A stretch of DNA of 5,813 nucleotides from a virus. The DNA lies in IMG/VR virus record IMGVR_UViG_3300038758_000078, positions 1-5,813 of that record, one strand, 5' to 3'. The position numbers and the translations under genes are program-made. Of this stretch, positions 1 through 5,813 are shown piece after piece. The notes under the pieces were generated by a model. It saw only the letters and a program-made list of their open reading frames with translations. It was not told where the DNA came from and did not search any database. How positions within the stretch are numbered: position 1 is the stretch's first letter; every line of letters starts with the position of its first letter.

Positions 1-99
1 CTGAACATCCTCATTCCAACGACGCAAATACATCGAGCCGTTGATACGAGAAATTTCCCAAGCCTGCGCTAGATCACGATTGGTCACAATAAAACCAAC
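1..99. repeat. Left copy of a 99-bp terminal direct repeat, identical to 5715..5813. This is the assembly overlap of a circular genome with a 5714-nt unit length.
   Basis: Read directly: the string ctgaacatcctcattccaacgacgcaaatacatcgagccgttgatacgagaaatttcccaagcctgcgctagatcacgattggtcacaataaaaccaac occurs at 1..99 and at 5715..5813. An ORF runs through the junction in frame. Confidence 0.9.
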
Positions 100-2517: not shown

Positions 2518-2824
2518 AATTTCTCAATACTTTCTCGGACTGTTCAATTACACTTTCGAATTCTCCAACTCCGGAAATCCACTCTTTCAAGCGCATCTGC
2601 AAATCTTGAAACGCCTTCTGGCACTCCAACCGGCTCACGATCTGCGACATTTTAACAACTTGCCTCATCTGGCATAGCTGCGTCAACGCAAAACTCATGC
2701 GTCCTCTATGCAACAAGCCTAAATCAACCAACGTACTCAATAACTGCCATTCCTCCAATTCAATCTCATCCCAAGATTTGACCGACAGCTCGCGACGGCA
2801 GCGCAAAATATTCCTTGAGCTCAT
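2510..2824 (-). CDS. C-like small protein (104 aa from the ATG at 2824). The ORF is open from a GTG at 2887, which would give 125 aa.
   Basis: It lies between A and D, where phiX174 has K and C. It overlaps the A 3' end by at least 59 nt and the D start by 8 nt. The stretch ELEEWQLLSTLV loosely resembles phiX174 C DEEKWLNMLGTFV (from memory). The start codon is uncertain: AGGCGG lies 7 nt before the ATG. Confidence 0.5.
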   Translation of the reverse strand: MSSRNILRCRRELSVKSWDEIELEEWQLLSTLVDLGLLHRGRMSFALTQLCQMRQVVKMSQIVSRLECQKAFQDLQMRLKEWISGVGEFESVIEQSEKVLRNYE

Positions 2825-4142
2825 ACAGCAACCGCCTAGCTTCAGAAATGCCCTCGGAACTCGGGGCCAAGGTCCATTCGCCAACACTCCGAGGCATGGA
2901 ATCCCTTGTCTTCAAAACCGACCGACTTAGGCGGCTGAACAGGGTCTCCGTCCTTGGGACGGTATTGAGGAACCGTGACGCCATGTCCTGCCCTCCAGTA
3001 TGGCTCAACGCTCTCCTGTACATCCTCCGACCCAGCTCCAACTTCGCCACTCGCCGCACCAGCCTCACCTGTGAGAACTCTCTGCTCTTGCTCCACGCCA
3101 CCAGCGCGACCAACCCCTTTTCGCTCGCCTGCTCCACTACCGCCGACAGCTTCTGCATCCCGAACCGTCTCGACATCTTTACTCGCCATGCTTTCCGTTT
3201 CCATTCTTCACCTTTCTGCTTAATCAGGTATTTTACCAGATAATTAGCCAAGCGCCCACCTGACGACGACACCGGCACAATCTTCTCTTCTCCGTCCACT
3301 ACTTCCTTCCGACTTGGCCAACGCCAACCCAACTCCGAATACGCATCACCAGCCCAACGCACCGCGATCGGGCTACTGGTCCCATACGGCCACCATCTAC
3401 GCAAAGCGTCAATCTCTCTCCGAACTCCACCGGCAAACGGATTCATATCCTGACAACCAGCCGGCAAATGAGACATCACTACAACACAATGAAAATGCAA
3501 TCGACCAGTTTCACCTCCCTCTTCAGGAATGCAAAAATAGGAAAAATACGCTTCTTCACCTGCTTTCTCAGCCGCTGCCTGCACGTCCTTGCGCCACTTC
3601 TCTTTCTGGATTCTCCACAAATTAGAGCCACGCTTAAAAACCTTAGGCAACCACTCATTATCACACGACAACGAATTGAACACCACAAACCGCTTCTCTC
3701 TCACTGCTTCTGAGATTTCACACAATAACCGTCCGCGATACTCGGCCGCACGACTTGATTCACGCTGCATCGCCAACAACTTCTCCAAATCACGCAAAAC
3801 TTCAACCTTACTGCTGGATCCGAGACCACGCGTCCGACTTCTGACAAACTCCAACGCCGGTTTCACTTCCCGCCGAAGACCTAAATACTCCTGGTCTAAT
3901 GCAATAACGGATTTCTTATCAAGTCGGTTTAATCCACGACGCACTGACGACAAAGCCGCACGACCTTCCAAATGCTCTGAAGCACTCATACCTTGACCTG
4001 GCCGCCTAGGAAACCAGGCACTCAACTTAGCCTCCGCTGCTGACAGCTCATTCACGAGGCGACCAATCTTAGTGCCTAGAAAATAAGACCGACCAATCTT
4101 GATAGAAGCATGCATACCTCTGAAAACCAAATAAATACACAC
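2766..4142 (-). CDS. A: Replication initiation protein A (HUH rolling-circle endonuclease). It is 458 aa from the GTG at 4142, and the first ATG is at 4115.
   Basis: The HUH motif RLHFHCVVV (HFH encoded at 3489..3497) matches phiX174 GRLHFHAVHF. The twin catalytic tyrosines YLVKYLIK (Tyr codons at 3240..3242 and 3228..3230) match phiX174 YVAKYVNK. Further blocks are YFCIPEEGGETG vs YFCVPEYGTANG, WPYGTSSPIAVRW vs WPYGYSMPIAVRY, and RVKMSRRFGMQKL vs RIRMSRNFGMKML. The start is ambiguous: the GTG at 4142 has no SD, and the ATG at 4115 is directly abutted by AGAGGT, which is too close. Confidence 0.95.
   Translation of the reverse strand: MCIYLVFRGMHASIKIGRSYFLGTKIGRLVNELSAAEAKLSAWFPRRPGQGMSASEHLEGRAALSSVRRGLNRLDKKSVIALDQEYLGLRREVKPALEFVRSRTRGLGSSSKVEVLRDLEKLLAMQRESSRAAEYRGRLLCEISEAVREKRFVVFNSLSCDNEWLPKVFKRGSNLWRIQKEKWRKDVQAAAEKAGEEAYFSYFCIPEEGGETGRLHFHCVVVMSHLPAGCQDMNPFAGGVRREIDALRRWWPYGTSSPIAVRWAGDAYSELGWRWPSRKEVVDGEEKIVPVSSSGGRLANYLVKYLIKQKGEEWKRKAWRVKMSRRFGMQKLSAVVEQASEKGLVALVAWSKSREFSQVRLVRRVAKLELGRRMYRRALSHTGGQDMASRFLNTVPRTETLFSRLSRSVLKTRDSMPRSVGEWTLAPSSEGISEARRLLYELKEYFALPSRAVGQILG
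2842..3204 (-). CDS. B: Internal scaffolding protein B-like (120 aa), embedded out of frame in the 3' half of gene A.
   Basis: ATG start with AAGGTG 4 nt upstream. It has the same length (120 aa) and the same gene-within-A arrangement as phiX174 B. The N-terminal part is acidic and Gly/Ala-rich. The C-terminus CWRMDLGPEFRGHF resembles phiX174 B DWRIQPAEFYRF...GYF, the aromatic tail that contacts F. Confidence 0.72.
   Translation of the reverse strand: METESMASKDVETVRDAEAVGGSGAGERKGVGRAGGVEQEQRVLTGEAGAASGEVGAGSEDVQESVEPYWRAGHGVTVPQYRPKDGDPVQPPKSVGFEDKGFHASECWRMDLGPEFRGHF
3891..3926 (-). other. Candidate viral-strand replication origin inside gene A, with the predicted A-protein nick between G3920 and A3919 on the minus strand.
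   Basis: The minus strand reads CGACTTGATAAGAAATCCGTTATTGCATTAGACCAG. The phiX174 origin, as I recall it, is CAACTTG^ATATTAATAACACTATAGACCAC. ACTTGATA and TAGACCA are shared, with 6 extra nt (2 codons) between them. Both lie at an equivalent place in A (ours NRLDKKSVIALDQ, phiX PQLDINNTIDH). Confidence 0.6.
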
Positions 4143-4149
4143 ACAGAAA

Positions 4150-4169
4150 CCAAATCAATTATTGATTGG
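4150..4169. promoter_or_regulatory. AT-rich palindrome between the orf101 stop and the A start.
   Basis: aatcaat-t-attgatt forms perfect 7-bp arms at 4153..4159 and 4161..4167. With one bulged A the pairing extends to cc/gg at 4150..4151 and 4168..4169. It is the only obvious structure in the 34-nt orf101-A spacer. Confidence 0.3.
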
Positions 4170-4176
4170 ATTCGTT

Positions 4177-4482
4177 TCACTCCTCAGTAACTCCAGTAGG
4201 ATCGCCAACGCCACTCTCTTCATCGCCGAACACAACTTCGGCTCCTCGATCCGATGCTCCTTCGCTGACGCTAACACGGCTCCTGTCAAACTCGTGATTT
4301 TCTGTAATTCTGACATAATTCGTAACAATCGTATTAGGCCTATCACGGCCACTAGTATTCAAAATAGCCGACTCAAGCATACCAAGCTTGAAATAATCAG
4401 TCTTCACGGAGCAGCCTTGACTTAGCAGCCCGCAGACGACGCCACATAGCACGCGATTCAATTTCCTTACATCGAACATCAT
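4177..4482 (-). CDS. orf101: predicted small secreted lipoprotein (101 aa, about 78 aa mature), with no phiX174 counterpart.
   Basis: The start is ATGATG, preceded by GAGG with a 6-nt spacer (TTAGAGGAATATTATG). The N-terminus is MMFDVRKLNRVLCGVVCGLLSQGC|SVKTD. It has a basic n-region, an uncharged h-region and LSQG-C24, which satisfies the PROSITE-style lipobox rule [LIVMFWSTAG]2-[LIVMFYSTAGCQ]-[AGS]-C. The mature part is hydrophilic with an acidic tail and Ser at +2. Confidence 0.55.
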   Translation of the reverse strand: MMFDVRKLNRVLCGVVCGLLSQGCSVKTDYFKLGMLESAILNTSGRDRPNTIVTNYVRITENHEFDRSRVSVSEGASDRGAEVVFGDEESGVGDPTGVTEE

Positions 4483-4645
4483 AATATTCCTCTAACAACT
4501 TTCTACACTTTCTCAACGATTTAGTTGCAACCAACGCATTCTCGATAGAATCCAAACTATCATTAATTCCATTAAAATCATCAGATAAATTCACCAATGC
4601 TTCGTTACATCCGGCCACACTCGAAAAGTCAATCTCATATTCCAT
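4397..4645 (-). CDS. orf82: small charge-bipolar protein of unknown function. The track ORF extends to a TTG at 4651 (84 aa).
   Basis: It is the first ORF after the noncoding region. From the ATG at 4645 it reads MEYEIDFSSVAGCNEALVNLSDDFNGINDSLDSIENAL, with 9 acidic and 0 basic residues. It continues as VATKSLRKCRKLLEEYYDVRCKEIESRAMWRRLRAAKSRLLRED, which is strongly basic. No SD is present. It appears helical by eye, and I recognise no family. Confidence 0.45.
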   Translation of the reverse strand: MEYEIDFSSVAGCNEALVNLSDDFNGINDSLDSIENALVATKSLRKCRKLLEEYYDVRCKEIESRAMWRRLRAAKSRLLRED

Positions 4646-4651
4646 AAACAA

Positions 4652-4679
4652 ACAATAACACAGAACAAAAACAAGTCAA
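4652..4679 (-). promoter_or_regulatory. Candidate sigma70-type promoter driving orf82-orf101-A.
   Basis: On the minus strand, TTGACT (4679..4674) is followed by a 16-nt spacer and then TGtTATTGT: an extended -10 TG at 4660..4659 and the hexamer at 4657..4652. A T-run, UP-element-like tract (tttttttgttttttttg) lies immediately upstream. Other weak -35/-10 pairs exist in this T-rich region, so the call is tentative. Confidence 0.35.
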
Positions 4680-4700
4680 CAAAAAAAACAAAAAAATAGA

Positions 4701-4816
4701 ACTGAGCAAAACAACCATAAACAGAGTAAAACAAGTAACAAAATGCCTATAACGAAAAAATAAGAATAGGCAAATAAAAAAGAAACAGAACTAAAGTAAA
4801 CACACTGAGCAAAACA
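4701..4816. repeat. Short dispersed direct repeats in the noncoding region.
   Basis: actgagcaaaaca occurs at 4701..4713 and at 4804..4816. The related gagtaaaaca lies at 4724..4733, 20 nt after the gagcaaaaca core at 4704. Confidence 0.5.
4744..4772 (-). terminator. Weak hairpin plus U-tract (terminator-like) in the H-orf82 noncoding region.
   Basis: tgcctat (4744..4750) pairs with ataggca (4766..4772) across a 15-nt loop. On the minus strand it is followed by TTTTGTTACTTGTTTT. The stem is short and AT-rich and the loop is large. Confidence 0.2.
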
Positions 4817-4837
4817 CATTCGTGTCACTAATATGAT

Positions 4838-4874
4838 GAAGCGCGCGATAAAAGCGTCTACGACGCCGCGCTTC
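4838..4874. other. Two-tier GC-rich hairpin in the noncoding region.
   Basis: The outer stem pairs gaagcgcg (4838..4845) with cgcgcttc (4867..4874). The inner stem pairs gcgtc (4854..4858) with gacgc (4862..4866) across a 3-nt loop, leaving an 8-nt bulge at 4846..4853. Confidence 0.6.
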
Positions 4875-4884
4875 TACTAAACTT

Positions 4885-4911
4885 GGGAGACCCCCAGAAA
4901 GGGGGTCTCTC
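4885..4911 (-). terminator. Strong GC hairpin about 20 nt downstream of the H stop. It may be the post-H transcription terminator and/or an ssDNA structural element.
   Basis: gagaccccc (4887..4895) pairs perfectly with gggggtctc (4901..4909) across a 5-nt loop (agaaa). Outer bases can extend the stem. The trailing sequence on the minus strand is only moderately U-rich (AAGUUUAGUAG), as with the leaky phiX174 terminators. Confidence 0.5.
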
Positions 4912-4932
4912 CAGCTAGACACTCTAGACTCC

Positions 4933-5688
4933 TCAACGTCCTGGGGATGGAATCATGCCAGGAATCTTAGAGGTAGCCTTTTCGTAGGACTTAGATAAAC
5001 GATGCATAGAATCCGTGAACTCCAGCAACGCCTTGTAGATCGACAGAGCTCGATCTGAAGAAACATCCGCATGCTTTCGCAACAACGCTCCAATCTGCTC
5101 GGGCGTAACAGACCCGGACCGTTTCATAAAATTCGCGAAACCATTAACCAAATTGCGAGTCTGAGCATACGTCAAATCAGCTTCCGCTAACTCCTTCGCA
5201 AACTTCGCTGACTCTTCGGAACGCGGTAAATTCGTCTCCTGAATAGCCGCTTGCGCATTCTGAAAACGTGCACTTGCTTGATTCGATTGCACCTTCGAAG
5301 CCATCTCGCCTCGAGACGCTTCCGATGTCCTATCCGCTGAATACTTCTGAGCATCTGCACCTATACGAGCAATCTTCTCTGAATTACGAGCCTGCAACCG
5401 AGCAATACGATACTGATCTGAAACACCAGCACTCTGACCGCCGGCAGAGCCGGCAGCACCTCGTAAACGCTCATGTGCCGACGTGCCAGGGTACGCACGA
5501 TCCATATAGTCTTTCTGAGCCCTGCCGGCAAACTTACCTCCAACATAAGCATTAACTCCGGCACCAGGGATCTCGGCAAGAGCATCCTTGATACCTTCAC
5601 TAGTCCTTGTCATTAAATTCTGCGTGGGGGCAGCATCCGTGCCGCCCCCAAACGCACCACTTAACAGCTTACCAAATGCACCAAACAT
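4933..5688 (-). CDS. H: DNA pilot (minor spike) protein H (251 aa).
   Basis: The ATG at 5688 overlaps the G-like stop (TAATG). The Gly-rich N-terminus MFGAFGKLLSGAFGGG resembles phiX174 MFGAIAGGIASALAGG. KDYMDRAYPGTSAHERL resembles RDYLAAAFPELNAWERA. A central Gln/Ala-rich helical region matches the phiX174 H coiled-coil type. It is the last gene before the noncoding region, as in phiX174. Confidence 0.85.
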   Translation of the reverse strand: MFGAFGKLLSGAFGGGTDAAPTQNLMTRTSEGIKDALAEIPGAGVNAYVGGKFAGRAQKDYMDRAYPGTSAHERLRGAAGSAGGQSAGVSDQYRIARLQARNSEKIARIGADAQKYSADRTSEASRGEMASKVQSNQASARFQNAQAAIQETNLPRSEESAKFAKELAEADLTYAQTRNLVNGFANFMKRSGSVTPEQIGALLRKHADVSSDRALSIYKALLEFTDSMHRLSKSYEKATSKIPGMIPSPGR

Positions 5689-5813
5689 TAGCCTGTAGAA
5701 TTAGGGTTCAGGGACTGAACATCCTCATTCCAACGACGCAAATACATCGAGCCGTTGATACGAGAAATTTCCCAAGCCTGCGCTAGATCACGATTGGTCA
5801 CAATAAAACCAAC
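5688..5813 (-). CDS. G: 3' end of the same G-like spike ORF: the last 41 codons plus the TAA stop. Bases 5715..5813 duplicate 1..99.
   Basis: The frame is continuous with 1..648 across the circular junction (648 + 27 nt = 225 codons). The ORF ends ...NEDVQSLNPNSTG then TAA at 5690..5688, and that stop shares its last A with the H start codon (TAATG). Confidence 0.7.
   Translation of the reverse strand, partial: VGFIVTNRDLAQAWEISRINGSMYLRRWNEDVQSLNPNSTG
5715..5813. repeat. Right copy of the 99-bp terminal direct repeat (circularisation overlap).
   Basis: Identical to 1..99 and runs to the last base of the window. Confidence 0.9.

What the first reader, a model, noticed from the sequence alone, without database searches (positions are those of the whole stretch)
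4177..4482. Predicted lipoprotein gene (orf101) in a microvirus, between H and A
orf101 has the best ribosome-binding context in the genome (GAGG, 6 nt, ATGATG). Its N-terminus has a charged n-region, an uncharged h-region and an LSQG-C lipobox at Cys24, followed by a hydrophilic 78-aa mature part. phiX174, G4 and alpha3 have no gene here and, to my knowledge, no lipoprotein. In other phages small lipoproteins act as receptor-blocking superinfection-exclusion factors (T5 Llp, Cor), as outer-membrane spanins, or like colicin release proteins. Any of these roles would be new for this virus family. Because no E-like gene is visible, a lysis role is also possible.
Basis: partly seen in the sequence, partly recalled or inferred. 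Interest (0 to 1): 0.8.

Follow-up and report, generated by a model that had tools for sequence, protein, structure and literature searches.

The report
Conserved small lipoprotein gene in microvirus
A tiny single-stranded DNA phage related to phiX174 carries a real, strongly conserved gene for a small lipid-anchored envelope protein, a kind of gene not described in this virus family and a testable candidate for how such phages, which lack the phiX174 lysis gene, burst or reprogram their host.

Summary
The ORF is there as described, on the minus strand (4482->4177, 101 aa, GAGG-6 nt-ATGATG). It meets the PROSITE lipoprotein rule, with the lipobox LSQG|C at Cys24.

It is a real gene. Homologues sit in the same H-to-A slot in four divergent microvirus lineages whose A proteins are 41-85% identical. 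The 22 residues starting at the Cys (CSVKTDYFKxGMLESAxLNTxG) are 19-21/22 identical. Synonymous sites there are saturated (pS 0.66-1.0 versus pN 0.12-0.19), and only in this frame.

The hydrophobic pre-Cys segment overlaps the 3' end of an upstream ORF (orf82). In all four lineages it is more hydrophobic than orf82's protein sequence would produce by chance (p = 0.003 to 0.0001).

Two of the four lineages have non-canonical lipoboxes, and one has no ATG start. The protein matches no known family or fold.

The gene forms a two-gene cassette with orf82 behind a conserved promoter-like site. The closest complete relative (MH649026) lacks the cassette.

Other phiX174-like microviruses without gene E carry unrelated small lipoprotein ORFs at other genome positions.

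Function is untested. I favour a lysis/egress effector (~0.4) over superinfection exclusion (~0.25). A spanin role is rejected.

The parts
4177..4482 (-). orf101 coding sequence (101 aa plus TGA stop): prolipoprotein
   Evidence: ORF list and sequence. Homologues in the same slot in L013, L008 and L009-L012. Frame-specific purifying selection.
4489..4492 (-). Shine-Dalgarno GAGG, 6 nt upstream of the first ATG (4480-4482); a second ATG follows at 4477-4479
   Evidence: Sequence. Anti-SD duplex -6.0 kcal/mol.
4414..4482 (-). Signal peptide, residues 1-23: n-region MMFDVRKLNR, h-region VLCGVVCGLL, then SQG. It lies entirely inside the overlap with orf82.
   Evidence: PS51257 rule met. AlphaFold2 predicts a helix at residues 5-22. 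Hydrophobicity exceeds the synonymous-resampling expectation, p=0.003 in the window and 0.001-0.0001 in the other lineages.
4411..4413 (-). Cys24 codon (TGC): predicted lipid-attachment residue and first residue of the mature protein
   Evidence: TGC is invariant in all four lineages. Ser+2 is kept through TCC/TCG/AGC codon switches while the overlapping orf82 residues change.
4348..4413 (-). Invariant membrane-proximal core C24-G45 (CSVKTDYFKLGMLESAILNTSG)
   Evidence: 19-21 of 22 residues are identical between lineages whose A proteins are 41-85% identical. pS 0.66-1.0 versus pN 0.12-0.19. Variable sites by codon position are 5/3/14.
4312..4329 (-). Second conserved block I52-V57 ([IV]VTNx[VY]), following a variable linker that is Pro-rich in two of the four lineages
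   Evidence: Alignments.
4180..4311 (-). Variable acidic, Ser/Thr/Glu-rich C-terminal tail (residues 58-101), predicted disordered
   Evidence: Not alignable between lineages. Pairwise dN/dS is variable, with four defined estimates (0.45-2.4, two below 1) and two pairs undefined because dS is saturated. pLDDT is mostly below 50.
4397..4645 (-). orf82: upstream partner ORF, acidic and all-helical, with no TMD or signal peptide. Its last 28 codons overlap the orf101 leader.
   Evidence: Present upstream of and overlapping the lipoprotein gene in all four lineages. Poorly conserved in sequence. AlphaFold2 predicts three helices, mean pLDDT 65. No family match.
4652..4679 (-). Sigma-70-type promoter-like site TTGACT-16-TATTGT with a TG extension, directly upstream of orf82. 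It would place orf82-orf101-A on one transcript.
   Evidence: Consensus scan. The site is visibly conserved in L008, L009/L010 and L013 alignments. Function is inferred, not shown.
2766..4115 (-). Gene A (replication initiator), next gene downstream; the ATG at 4115 lies 61 nt after the orf101 stop
   Evidence: PHROG 713 at 2e-51 and Pfam REP_ORF2-G2P. N-terminus aligned with L009 and L013.
4933..5688 (-). Gene H (DNA pilot protein): upstream boundary of the slot
   Evidence: Pfam Microvir_H at 3e-7 and PHROG 1471.

Best explanation
What it is. orf101 is a genuine gene of a phiX174-like (Family 1, D-scaffold plus spike) microvirus. It encodes a small prolipoprotein.

Shown:
- The gene is conserved in four lineages.
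- A hydrophobic leader precedes an invariant Cys, and that leader is itself under selection.
- A near-invariant 22-residue motif begins exactly at that Cys.
- The gene is always paired with the overlapping, helical, cytoplasmic-looking orf82, behind a conserved promoter-like site and in front of gene A.

Inferred steps:
- The precursor is exported by Sec.
- Host Lgt adds diacylglycerol to Cys24, and LspA cleaves between Gly23 and Cys24.
- With Ser at +2, the roughly 78-aa mature protein is sent by Lol to the inner leaflet of the outer membrane (the enterobacterial sorting rule).
- Its membrane-proximal conserved motif engages a conserved envelope component, while the acidic disordered tail stays in the periplasm.

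Most likely role (about 0.4): the phage's envelope-breaching or egress effector. This would be a single-gene lysis function that replaces the missing gene E. It would resemble colicin-release lipoproteins in outline, which permeabilise the envelope from the periplasmic side.

Sub-confidences: real gene about 0.97; exported protein with lipid-modified Cys about 0.8; lysis role about 0.4. The confidence field (0.4) refers to the whole statement including the lysis role.
For: Real gene:
- Homologues lie in the H-to-A slot of L013, L008 and L009-L012.
- The core is 19-21/22 identical, while A is 41-85% and H 32-80% identical.
- pS is 0.66-1.0 versus pN 0.12-0.19 in this frame, and the pattern reverses in the other two frames.

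Leader:
- The PS51257 rule is met in the window and in L013. L013 has a textbook leader, MKNIRRLVLLGVIVCVSGAC.
- The 13 residues before the Cys are uncharged in all four lineages.
- Resampling synonymous codons of the overlapping orf82 frame reaches the observed hydrophobicity in only 0.3%, 0.1%, 0.01% and 0.06% of trials.
- Ser+2 is kept by TCC/TCG/AGC codons while the orf82 residues change. In L013 orf82 ends one codon earlier, yet CSVKTD is preserved.

Lysis argument:
- There is no E-like TMD ORF inside D, while the same scan finds E in G4.
- No peptidase, endolysin or holin appears among the seven main ORFs searched, the unsearched G-like ORF excepted.
- Sister E-less genomes carry unrelated small lipoprotein ORFs at different positions: KP087947, KP087943 and L017 between A and D, L018 between D and F, and KP087950 between F and G. 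Others carry small TMD ORFs.
- One of those other lipoprotein families is itself under purifying selection.
- This scatter of position and sequence is the pattern known for de novo single-gene lysis genes (established knowledge from ssRNA phages and phiX174 E).
- Kirchberger et al. 2022 describe this suborder's spike protein as LPS-binding (PMC9239249). That makes an Llp/Cor-type block of a protein receptor less obvious.
Against: - No lipoprotein predictor or experiment was available, so acylation is inferred.
- The lipobox is non-canonical in 2 of 4 lineages: Asn at -1 in L008, and Cys-Cys-Ser with no nearby ATG in the L010 lineage. That L010 sequence is identical in four independent contigs. 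Gln at -2 in the window is unusual.
- There is no sequence similarity to colicin lysis proteins or to any Pfam, PHROG, NCBIfam, PADLOC or PDB entry.
- The mature part (53-78 aa) is longer than colicin-release peptides.
- AlphaFold2 gives no fold (pLDDT 50).
- The cassette is absent from MH649026, where the H-to-A gap is 123 nt. That phage must lyse without it.
- Several relatives, including the Vibrio phage PG19, show no lipoprotein ORF at all.
- Placement first on the gene-A transcript with a good SD fits an early exclusion function at least as well.
- The role of orf82 is unexplained.
- Other small hydrophobic ORFs exist in the window (4676-4828 and 4076-4180) and could be the lysis gene instead.
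Confidence: 0.4

Rival explanations
1. Superinfection-exclusion or progeny-protection lipoprotein. It would work like T5 Llp or the Cor proteins. Made early from the gene-A transcript, it would sit in the envelope and block adsorption, H-tube penetration or DNA entry by a second phage. It could also stop progeny being inactivated on cell debris.
For: - It is a small lipoprotein with OM-type Ser+2.
- It is promoter-proximal, has a good SD and is co-transcribed with the early-needed gene A.
- It is an accessory cassette that a close relative lacks, as expected for a dispensable function.
- The H-to-A slot holds other, unrelated small ORFs in PG19 and KP087947, so it behaves like an accessory-gene hot spot.
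- Most phage lipoproteins of known function other than spanins are exclusion factors (established knowledge).
Against: - No similarity to Llp or Cor families in PHROGs or Pfam.
- Kirchberger et al. 2022 describe this suborder's spike as LPS-binding (PMC9239249). A periplasmic-side lipoprotein cannot mask LPS in the way Llp masks FhuA.
- 19-21/22 identity across lineages with saturated synonymous sites is stronger constraint than on A or H. That is unusual for an arms-race factor.
- It does not explain why sister genomes repeatedly carry a lipoprotein or TMD ORF elsewhere in the genome.
Confidence: 0.25
2. Exported but not lipidated. The leader would be a Sec signal cleaved by signal peptidase I, or an uncleaved signal anchor. 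The product would be a soluble periplasmic peptide or an inner-membrane-tethered peptide whose N-terminal Cys has another role.
For: - Small residues at -3 and -1 (S-x-G, S-x-A, C-x-S) also fit signal peptidase I.
- Two of four lineages fail the canonical lipobox rule.
Against: - The Cys is invariant and lies exactly at the boundary between the divergent leader and the near-invariant mature sequence in all four lineages. That is the hallmark of SPII substrates.
- Asn at -1 in L008 is also poor for signal peptidase I.
Confidence: 0.1
3. The true product is the shorter cytoplasmic protein called by Prodigal, starting at GTG Val26 in the window (76 aa). The 'signal peptide' would then be a by-product of the orf82 reading frame.
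For: - JGI and ENA gene calls start at or just before the Cys (P0001, P0018, P0019, P0023).
- The L010 lineage has no ATG upstream within 50 codons.
Against: - The Val26 codon is GTA in L008 and GTT in L013, so that start is not conserved.
- Cys24 and Ser25 upstream of it are invariant, even through a TCN/AGC codon switch.
- The leader's hydrophobicity is selected beyond orf82's constraints in all four lineages.
- Three lineages have ATG plus K/R plus an h-region.
Confidence: 0.04
4. Outer-membrane spanin (Rz1-like), working with orf82 as an overlapping inner-membrane partner to fuse the membranes at the last step of lysis.
For: - The gene architecture resembles overlapped Rz/Rz1 pairs: an upstream helical ORF with a small lipoprotein gene overlapping its 3' end in another frame.
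- The linker is Pro-rich in L008 and L010.
Against: - orf82 and its homologues have no TMD.
- The apparent in-frame hydrophobic ORF upstream of orf82 is separated from it by a TGA. That ORF is out of frame in L010 and absent in L008.
- The mature orf101 has no further Cys for the disulfide links typical of o-spanins.
- No endolysin or holin is recognisable in the genome.
Confidence: 0.03

Closest known systems
Colicin lysis / bacteriocin release proteins (small lipoproteins, Pfam Lysis_col)
   Same: Both are short precursors with a lipobox leader. Both have a small hydrophilic mature peptide whose conserved part starts at the acylated Cys. No enzyme domain is present. A single gene would be enough to breach the Gram-negative envelope.
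   Different: No sequence similarity (no Pfam match at E<=1). The mature part is 53-78 aa with a long acidic tail rather than about 28-35 aa. It is encoded by a virus rather than a plasmid. Lytic activity is untested.
T5 Llp and Cor (phi80/N15/T1) superinfection-exclusion lipoproteins
   Same: Both are small phage-encoded outer-membrane-type lipoproteins. Both are expressed early and are accessory to the core genome.
   Different: No similarity to PHROG or Pfam families. Llp and Cor act on the protein receptor FhuA, whereas this virus group has an LPS-binding-type spike. The core motif here is far more conserved than the phage's own essential proteins.
phiX174 gene E (single-gene lysis, MraY inhibitor)
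   Same: Both are small envelope-targeted proteins of Family 1 microviruses, encoded in part by overprinting on another gene. This genome would need a functional replacement for E.
   Different: E is an N-terminal-TMD inner-membrane protein embedded in gene D. orf101 is a cleaved-leader lipoprotein between H and A. No E-like ORF exists in D here.
Rz1-type o-spanins
   Same: Both are small lipoproteins whose gene overlaps an upstream helical ORF.
   Different: The partner lacks a TMD. There are no periplasmic Cys residues and no endolysin or holin.
Unannotated or 'hypothetical' small lipoprotein ORFs of Eel River basin pequenoviruses and related MAGs (KP087947 1214-1447; KP087943 1558-1845; L017 636-842; L018 3687-3860)
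   Same: They occur in the same virus group and share the same design: a textbook lipobox leader, a 40-55 aa mature peptide and an acidic tail. They are single copy per genome.
   Different: The sequences are unrelated (hhalign probability 0.6%). They occupy different genome positions (A-D, D-F). Family 2 has extra Cys residues.

Membership tests
Bacterial lipoproteins (Lgt/LspA substrates; PROSITE PS51257 rule) | K or R within the first 7 residues | tested here: met
   R6 and K7 in the window. MKNIRR in L013 and MKLR in L008. The start is undetermined in the L010 lineage.
Bacterial lipoproteins (Lgt/LspA substrates; PROSITE PS51257 rule) | Uncharged hydrophobic h-region directly before the lipobox | tested here: met
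   No charged residue in the 13 residues before the Cys in any of the four lineages. Mean Kyte-Doolittle is 1.8-2.7. This exceeds the synonymous-resampling expectation (p 0.003-0.0001).
Bacterial lipoproteins (Lgt/LspA substrates; PROSITE PS51257 rule) | Lipobox [LIVMFWSTAG]2-[LIVMFYSTAGCQ]-[AGS]-C with Cys at position 15-35 | tested here: met
   Met in the window (LSQG-C24) and L013 (VSGA-C20). Not met in the homologues L008 (LSVN-C) and L010 (VCCS-C). None of the four matches the stricter [LVI][ASTVI][GAS]C form.
Bacterial lipoproteins (Lgt/LspA substrates; PROSITE PS51257 rule) | Cys conserved among homologues at the leader/mature boundary | tested here: met
   TGC is invariant. Sequence conservation begins exactly at the Cys.
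Bacterial lipoproteins (Lgt/LspA substrates; PROSITE PS51257 rule) | Diacylglyceryl modification and globomycin-sensitive cleavage | not testable with these tools
   Requires expression and labelling.
Colicin lysis proteins (Pfam Lysis_col) | Sequence membership in the family | tested here: not met
   hmmscan against Pfam-A returns no family at E<=1. That Lysis_col is part of Pfam-A is from my own knowledge.
Colicin lysis proteins (Pfam Lysis_col) | Expression alone causes quasi-lysis or release (OmpLA-dependent) | not testable with these tools
   Needs an experiment.
Two-component spanins (Rz/Rz1) | Adjacent or overlapping i-spanin with an N-terminal TMD and a periplasmic coiled coil | tested here: not met
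   orf82 and its three homologues have no hydrophobic segment.
Two-component spanins (Rz/Rz1) | Accompanying holin and endolysin | tested here: not met
   The main ORFs searched in the window match only F, D, H and A families or nothing.
Llp/Cor exclusion lipoproteins | Sequence membership (PHROG/Pfam families) | tested here: not met
   No PHROG or Pfam hit at E<=1. tblastn against 50,697 phage records finds nothing.
Llp/Cor exclusion lipoproteins | Blocks the phage's own receptor or entry | not testable with these tools
   Host and receptor are unknown. Needs an experiment.
phiX174 E-type lysis protein | N-terminal TMD protein overprinted in gene D | tested here: not met
   A TMD scan finds E in G4 but no such ORF in D of the window or L010. 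orf101 lies between H and A.
Family 1 / Suborder I microviruses (phiX174-like plus pequenovirus-like) | F capsid, external scaffold D, spike-position gene, H pilot and A initiator in phiX174 order | tested here: met
   Phage_F 5e-62, gpD 8e-11, Microvir_H 3e-7, PHROG 713 2e-51. A 224-aa ORF sits in the G position and crosses the window ends. F is about 37% identical to G4, Vibrio PG19 and pequenoviruses. The definition is from PMC9239249.

The most novel reading that the evidence does not exclude
orf101-type lipoproteins, together with the unrelated small lipoproteins found at other positions in sister genomes, are the long-sought lysis genes of E-less phiX174-like microviruses. They would form a new class of single-gene lysis effector that acts as a lipid-anchored 'protein antibiotic' from the periplasmic side. 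The near-invariant 22-residue motif next to the anchor would bind a conserved envelope machine. Candidates are lipoprotein trafficking (Lol), outer-membrane assembly (Bam or Lpt), or activation of outer-membrane phospholipase. orf82 would be a cytoplasmic timer or antagonist.
Probability: 0.3. Interest if true: 0.85.

Novelty: new variant of a known kind. Interest (0 to 1): 0.65.

Why it matters
How microviruses outside the phiX174 genus group lyse their hosts is largely unknown. Only gene E and a few peptidases have been assigned. Single-gene lysis proteins have repeatedly pointed to druggable steps of envelope synthesis (MraY, MurA, MurJ).

This gene is a small lipoprotein conserved more tightly than the phage's own replication and pilot proteins. 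That gives a concrete, cheap-to-test candidate. It needs about 300 nt of synthesis, one Cys-to-Ala control and globomycin.

If it lyses cells, it would define a new way for a virus to kill from the periplasm, and its 22-residue motif could point to a conserved envelope target. If it excludes superinfecting phage, it would be the first exclusion factor with a known gene in this family.

Either way, lipoprotein ORFs recur in relatives, and gene callers routinely truncate or miss them. This shows that overprinted envelope genes are under-annotated in microvirus genomes.

Tried and rejected
Searches that found nothing:
- Whole-window blastn against the phage collection gave no match.
- IMG/VR scans with F, the lipoprotein alignment, the A alignment, the family-2 alignment and the L018 protein all found nothing.
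- GTDB genome scans with the lipoprotein and A alignments found nothing, so there is no host hint.
- A paper search for the sample accessions returned nothing.

Spurious hit:
- An exhaustive phmmer search gave one spurious repeat protein (P0017), which I discarded.

Structure:
- The orf101 model was too poor (pLDDT 50, pTM 0.18), so I ran no fold search. It would have been meaningless.
- The orf82 model is helical but of low confidence.

Ideas rejected:
- Distant homology between the orf101 family and the pequenovirus lipoprotein family. hhalign probability is 0.6%.
- A fusion of the T-rich hydrophobic ORF (4676-4828) with orf82 into an i-spanin-like protein. In the window the two share a frame and are split by a single TGA. 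They are out of frame in L010, the region is missing in L008, and TGA is used as a stop by H, orf82 and orf101.
- The GTG Val26 start, because that codon is GTA or GTT in other lineages.

Uninformative:
- dN/dS in the signal region is saturated in both overlapping frames. I replaced it with the synonymous-resampling test.
- P0020 could not be located on a contig. Its longer cluster mate P0021 could.
Full report
CONTEXT

The window is a complete circular microvirus genome: 5,714 nt plus a 99-nt terminal redundancy. All genes are on the minus strand, in phiX174 order:
- A: 2766-4115
- B-like and C-like ORFs
- D scaffold: 2056-2517 (Pfam gpD)
- J-like basic ORF: 1929-2066
- F capsid: 651-1928 (Phage_F, 5e-62)
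- a 224-aa ORF in the G position that crosses the window ends
- H pilot: 4933-5688

F is only about 37% identical to G4, to the Vibrio phages PG19 and WS1, and to the Eel River basin pequenoviruses. This places the virus in the phiX174-like group that has an external scaffold and a spike (Suborder I / Family 1 of PMC9239249). It lies outside the Bullavirinae. No DNA-level match exists in the phage collection.

THE OBSERVATION

On the minus strand, 4482->4177 encodes 101 aa. The start context is GAGG (4489-4492), then AATATT, then ATGATG.

The N-terminus, MMFDVRKLNRVLCGVVCGLLSQG|C24, meets the PROSITE PS51257 lipoprotein rule:
- K/R within the first 7 residues
- six or more uncharged residues before the lipobox
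- the pattern [LIVMFWSTAG]2-[LIVMFYSTAGCQ]-[AGS]-C
- Cys between positions 15 and 35

Three qualifications apply:
- The first 28 codons overlap the 3' end of orf82 (4397-4645) in another frame.
- The SD is good but not uniquely the best. The A, B-like, C-like and J-like starts are comparable, while F, H, D and orf82 have essentially none.
- JGI's gene caller began the gene at GTG Val26 (76 aa), whereas the Logan call gives 101 aa.

IS IT A GENE?

The identical genome recurs in four other assemblies, which adds nothing.

An exhaustive phmmer search of 1.84 billion representatives, a metagenome scan and a profile search recovered three further lineages:
- L013 (A 85% identical to the window's)
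- L009-L012 (A 63%)
- L008 (A 41%, H 32%)

In each lineage the homologue lies between H and A and overlaps the 3' end of an ORF of about 80 aa.

The 22 residues from the Cys onward, CSVKTDYFK[LIV]GMLESA[IT]LNT[SA]G, are 19-21/22 identical. A second block, [IV]VTNx[VY], follows. The C-terminal tails are acidic and cannot be aligned.

In the 16 core codons beyond the orf82 stop:
- pS is 0.66-1.0 (saturated) against pN 0.12-0.19 in the orf101 frame.
- The pattern reverses in both other frames.
- Variable sites fall 5/3/14 by codon position.

This is strong frame-specific purifying selection. The core is better conserved than the phage's replication and pilot proteins.

IS THE LEADER REAL?

The four leaders differ in sequence, but each is uncharged for at least 13 residues before the invariant TGC Cys codon:
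- window: MMFDVRKLNRVLCGVVCGLLSQG
- L013: MKNIRRLVLLGVIVCVSGA
- L008: MKLRNGIVLLIVLGLSVN
- L010: ...LLSCTLSVVVSVCCS

The second codon position of orf101 is the wobble position of orf82, so I resampled orf82's synonymous codons using each genome's own codon usage. An open frame with no more charged residues and a hydropathy at least as high as observed arose in 0.27%, 0.14%, 0.01% and 0.06% of 20,000 trials. The hydrophobic leader is therefore selected in its own right in every lineage.

Two further points support translation through the Cys:
- Ser+2 is encoded by TCC, TCG, AGC and AGC while the overlapping orf82 residues change.
- In L013 orf82 stops one codon earlier, yet CSVKTD is preserved.

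The Val26 GTG start is not conserved: it is GTA in L008 and GTT in L013.

Weak points:
- L008 has Asn at -1.
- The L010 lineage has Cys-Cys-Ser before the Cys and no ATG within 50 codons. It has a CTG seven nt behind AAGGAG. This sequence is identical in four independent contigs.
- Gln at -2 in the window is unusual.

AlphaFold2 with four sequences predicts only the leader helix (residues 5-22) and an unstructured mature part (mean pLDDT 50).

WHAT IT IS NOT

No match was found in any of the following:
- Pfam, PHROGs, NCBIfam, PADLOC or PDB sequences at permissive thresholds
- 50,697 phage records
- IMG/VR
- 185,579 bacterial and archaeal species genomes

It is therefore not a sequence member of the colicin-lysis, Rz1, Llp or Cor families.

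The overlapped two-gene layout recalls Rz/Rz1 spanins. However, orf82 and its homologues are acidic, all-helical proteins without a TMD. The mature lipoprotein has no further Cys. No endolysin or holin is recognisable among the main ORFs searched.

A hydrophobic ORF in the T-rich region (4676-4828) happens to share orf82's frame across a single TGA. This does not hold in L010, and L008 lacks the region. I reject the spanin reading.

SURROUNDINGS

A promoter-like site, TTGACT-16-TATTGT with a TG extension (4679-4652), lies just upstream of orf82. It is conserved in all four lineages. orf82, orf101 and A would therefore share a transcript, although this is inferred and not shown.

The closest complete relative, MH649026 (F 48% identical), has only 123 nt between H and A and lacks the cassette. 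In PG19 and KP087947 the same slot holds unrelated small ORFs that are not exported. The slot behaves as an accessory-gene hot spot.

A WIDER PATTERN

I scanned 18 related genomes with the PS51257 rule. The non-coding strands gave 7 weak hits in 6 genomes. The coding strands gave textbook lipoprotein ORFs elsewhere in the genome:
- KP087947 1214-1447: ...VALAVSLSAC|, between A and D, unannotated
- KP087943 1558-1845 and L017 636-842: ...LTFLSGC|ITTESC..., between A and D
- L018 3687-3860: MKNSLLIVLLVLSGC|, between D and F

The KP087943/L017 family is itself under purifying selection (pS 0.61 against pN 0.17). It is unrelated to the orf101 family (hhalign probability 0.6%).

Other findings from the relatives:
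- KP087950 has a 107-aa ORF with ...AASAIVGC|.
- KP087957, L019 and L017 carry small TMD ORFs.
- MH649026, two Ciona-gut genomes, KP087951, PG19 and G4 show no lipoprotein ORF.
- The TMD scan recovers E inside D in G4 but finds nothing comparable in the window or L010.

MECHANISM

Shown: an exported-protein signature with an invariant boundary Cys, and a near-invariant motif adjacent to the membrane anchor.

Inferred, from the established lipoprotein pathway:
- Sec export
- Lgt modification of Cys24
- LspA cleavage after Gly23
- Lol-dependent delivery to the outer membrane, given Ser+2

Function cannot be computed. I favour a lysis or egress effector (about 0.4), for four reasons:
- The phage has no E and no recognisable lysis enzyme.
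- Small lipoproteins can breach the envelope on their own (colicin release proteins).
- Sister genomes carry one unrelated lipoprotein or TMD ORF at shifting positions. This is the pattern typical of de novo single-gene lysis genes.
- The group's LPS-type spike makes Llp/Cor-style masking of a protein receptor less apt.

Against this:
- The cassette is dispensable in MH649026.
- Several relatives show nothing comparable.
- The early-transcript placement with a good SD suits exclusion (about 0.25).
- Other small hydrophobic ORFs in the window could be the lysis gene.

NOVELTY

I found no paper describing a microvirus-encoded lipoprotein. The large microvirus survey does not mention lipoproteins and explicitly omits overprinted genes. 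The kind of protein, a small phage lipoprotein, is known. The sequence family, the virus family and possibly the role are new.

Noticed in passing
L014 (KP087947) 1214-1447; L016 (KP087943) 1558-1845; L017 636-842; L018 3687-3860; L024 (KP087950) 4048-4371: Related E-less phiX174-like microviruses carry small ORFs with textbook lipoprotein leaders at other genome positions (A-D, D-F, F-G). They are unrelated in sequence to orf101. Some are unannotated or deposited as 'hypothetical protein'. The KP087943/L017 family shows pS 0.61 versus pN 0.17.
   Followed up: partly
window 4676-4828 (-), also 4591-4734 (-): The T-rich (48% T) region between H and orf82 holds very hydrophobic ORFs. One is 50 aa (47 aa from its ATG), MCFAQCVYFSS...FFCFFC. 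Its start context (RMCFAQCVY) is shared with L010 2170-2295. It ends in the TGA inside the -35 hexamer. It is in frame with orf82 across that single TGA. All three frames are open here, so the ORF alone is weak evidence, but it is an alternative lysis or TMD candidate.
   Followed up: partly
window 4835-4932 (-): Stable hairpins lie immediately after the H stop. The main ones are GGAGAGACCCCC/GGGGGTCTCC and GAAGCGCG...CGCGCTTC, with a small third stem-loop upstream (-27.8 kcal/mol, z = -6.4). L010 shows compensatory changes in the two main stems (GCGCG/CGCGC becomes GCACG/CGTGC). They could be a terminator and/or a complementary-strand origin in the ssDNA.
   Followed up: partly
window 4643-4679 (-): orf82 has no Shine-Dalgarno. 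Its ATG (4643-4645) begins 7 nt after the conserved -10 hexamer (which ends at 4652). It may therefore be translated from a leaderless or near-leaderless mRNA.
   Followed up: no
window 4076-4180 (-): A 34-aa hydrophobic ORF (GTG start overlapping the orf101 stop; MKRIQSIIDLVSVCVFIWFSEVCMLLSRLVGLIF) spans the orf101-A gap and overlaps the A start in another frame. L013 628-732 has a near-identical ORF, and L010 2666-2845 a looser one. The conservation may simply reflect A's N-terminus.
   Followed up: no
window 1-99 and 5715-5813: An exact 99-nt terminal repeat marks the window as a circular 5,714-nt genome. A 224-aa ORF in the G (spike) position starts 2 nt after the F stop and runs across the window ends, so the ORF listing does not report it.
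   Followed up: yes
window starts of F (1928), H (5688), D (2517): The major structural genes have essentially no Shine-Dalgarno (duplex -1.7 to -3.0 kcal/mol). The small or regulatory genes (orf101, A, B-like, C-like, J-like) do have one. This might reflect host translation habits or expression tuning.
   Followed up: no
L006 (MH649026) 2713-2837; L015 (PG19) 5355-5537; L014 (KP087947) 5369-5596: The H-to-A junction is variable across the group. It is 123 nt with no ORF in MH649026. PG19 and KP087947 have unrelated ORFs of 60 aa and 75 aa there with no signal peptide. The slot looks like an accessory-gene hot spot.
   Followed up: partly
L009-L012, e.g. L009 875-930: The L010 lineage has no ATG, GTG or TTG that would give a normal leader. 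The only well-placed start is a CTG (L009 881) seven nt behind AAGGAG. The sequence is identical in four independent assemblies.
   Followed up: partly
L017 1-60: The first bases of this ENA contig translate as ...LHSFPTRRSSDL, the signature of an Illumina adapter. The contig end is probably an assembly artefact.
   Followed up: no
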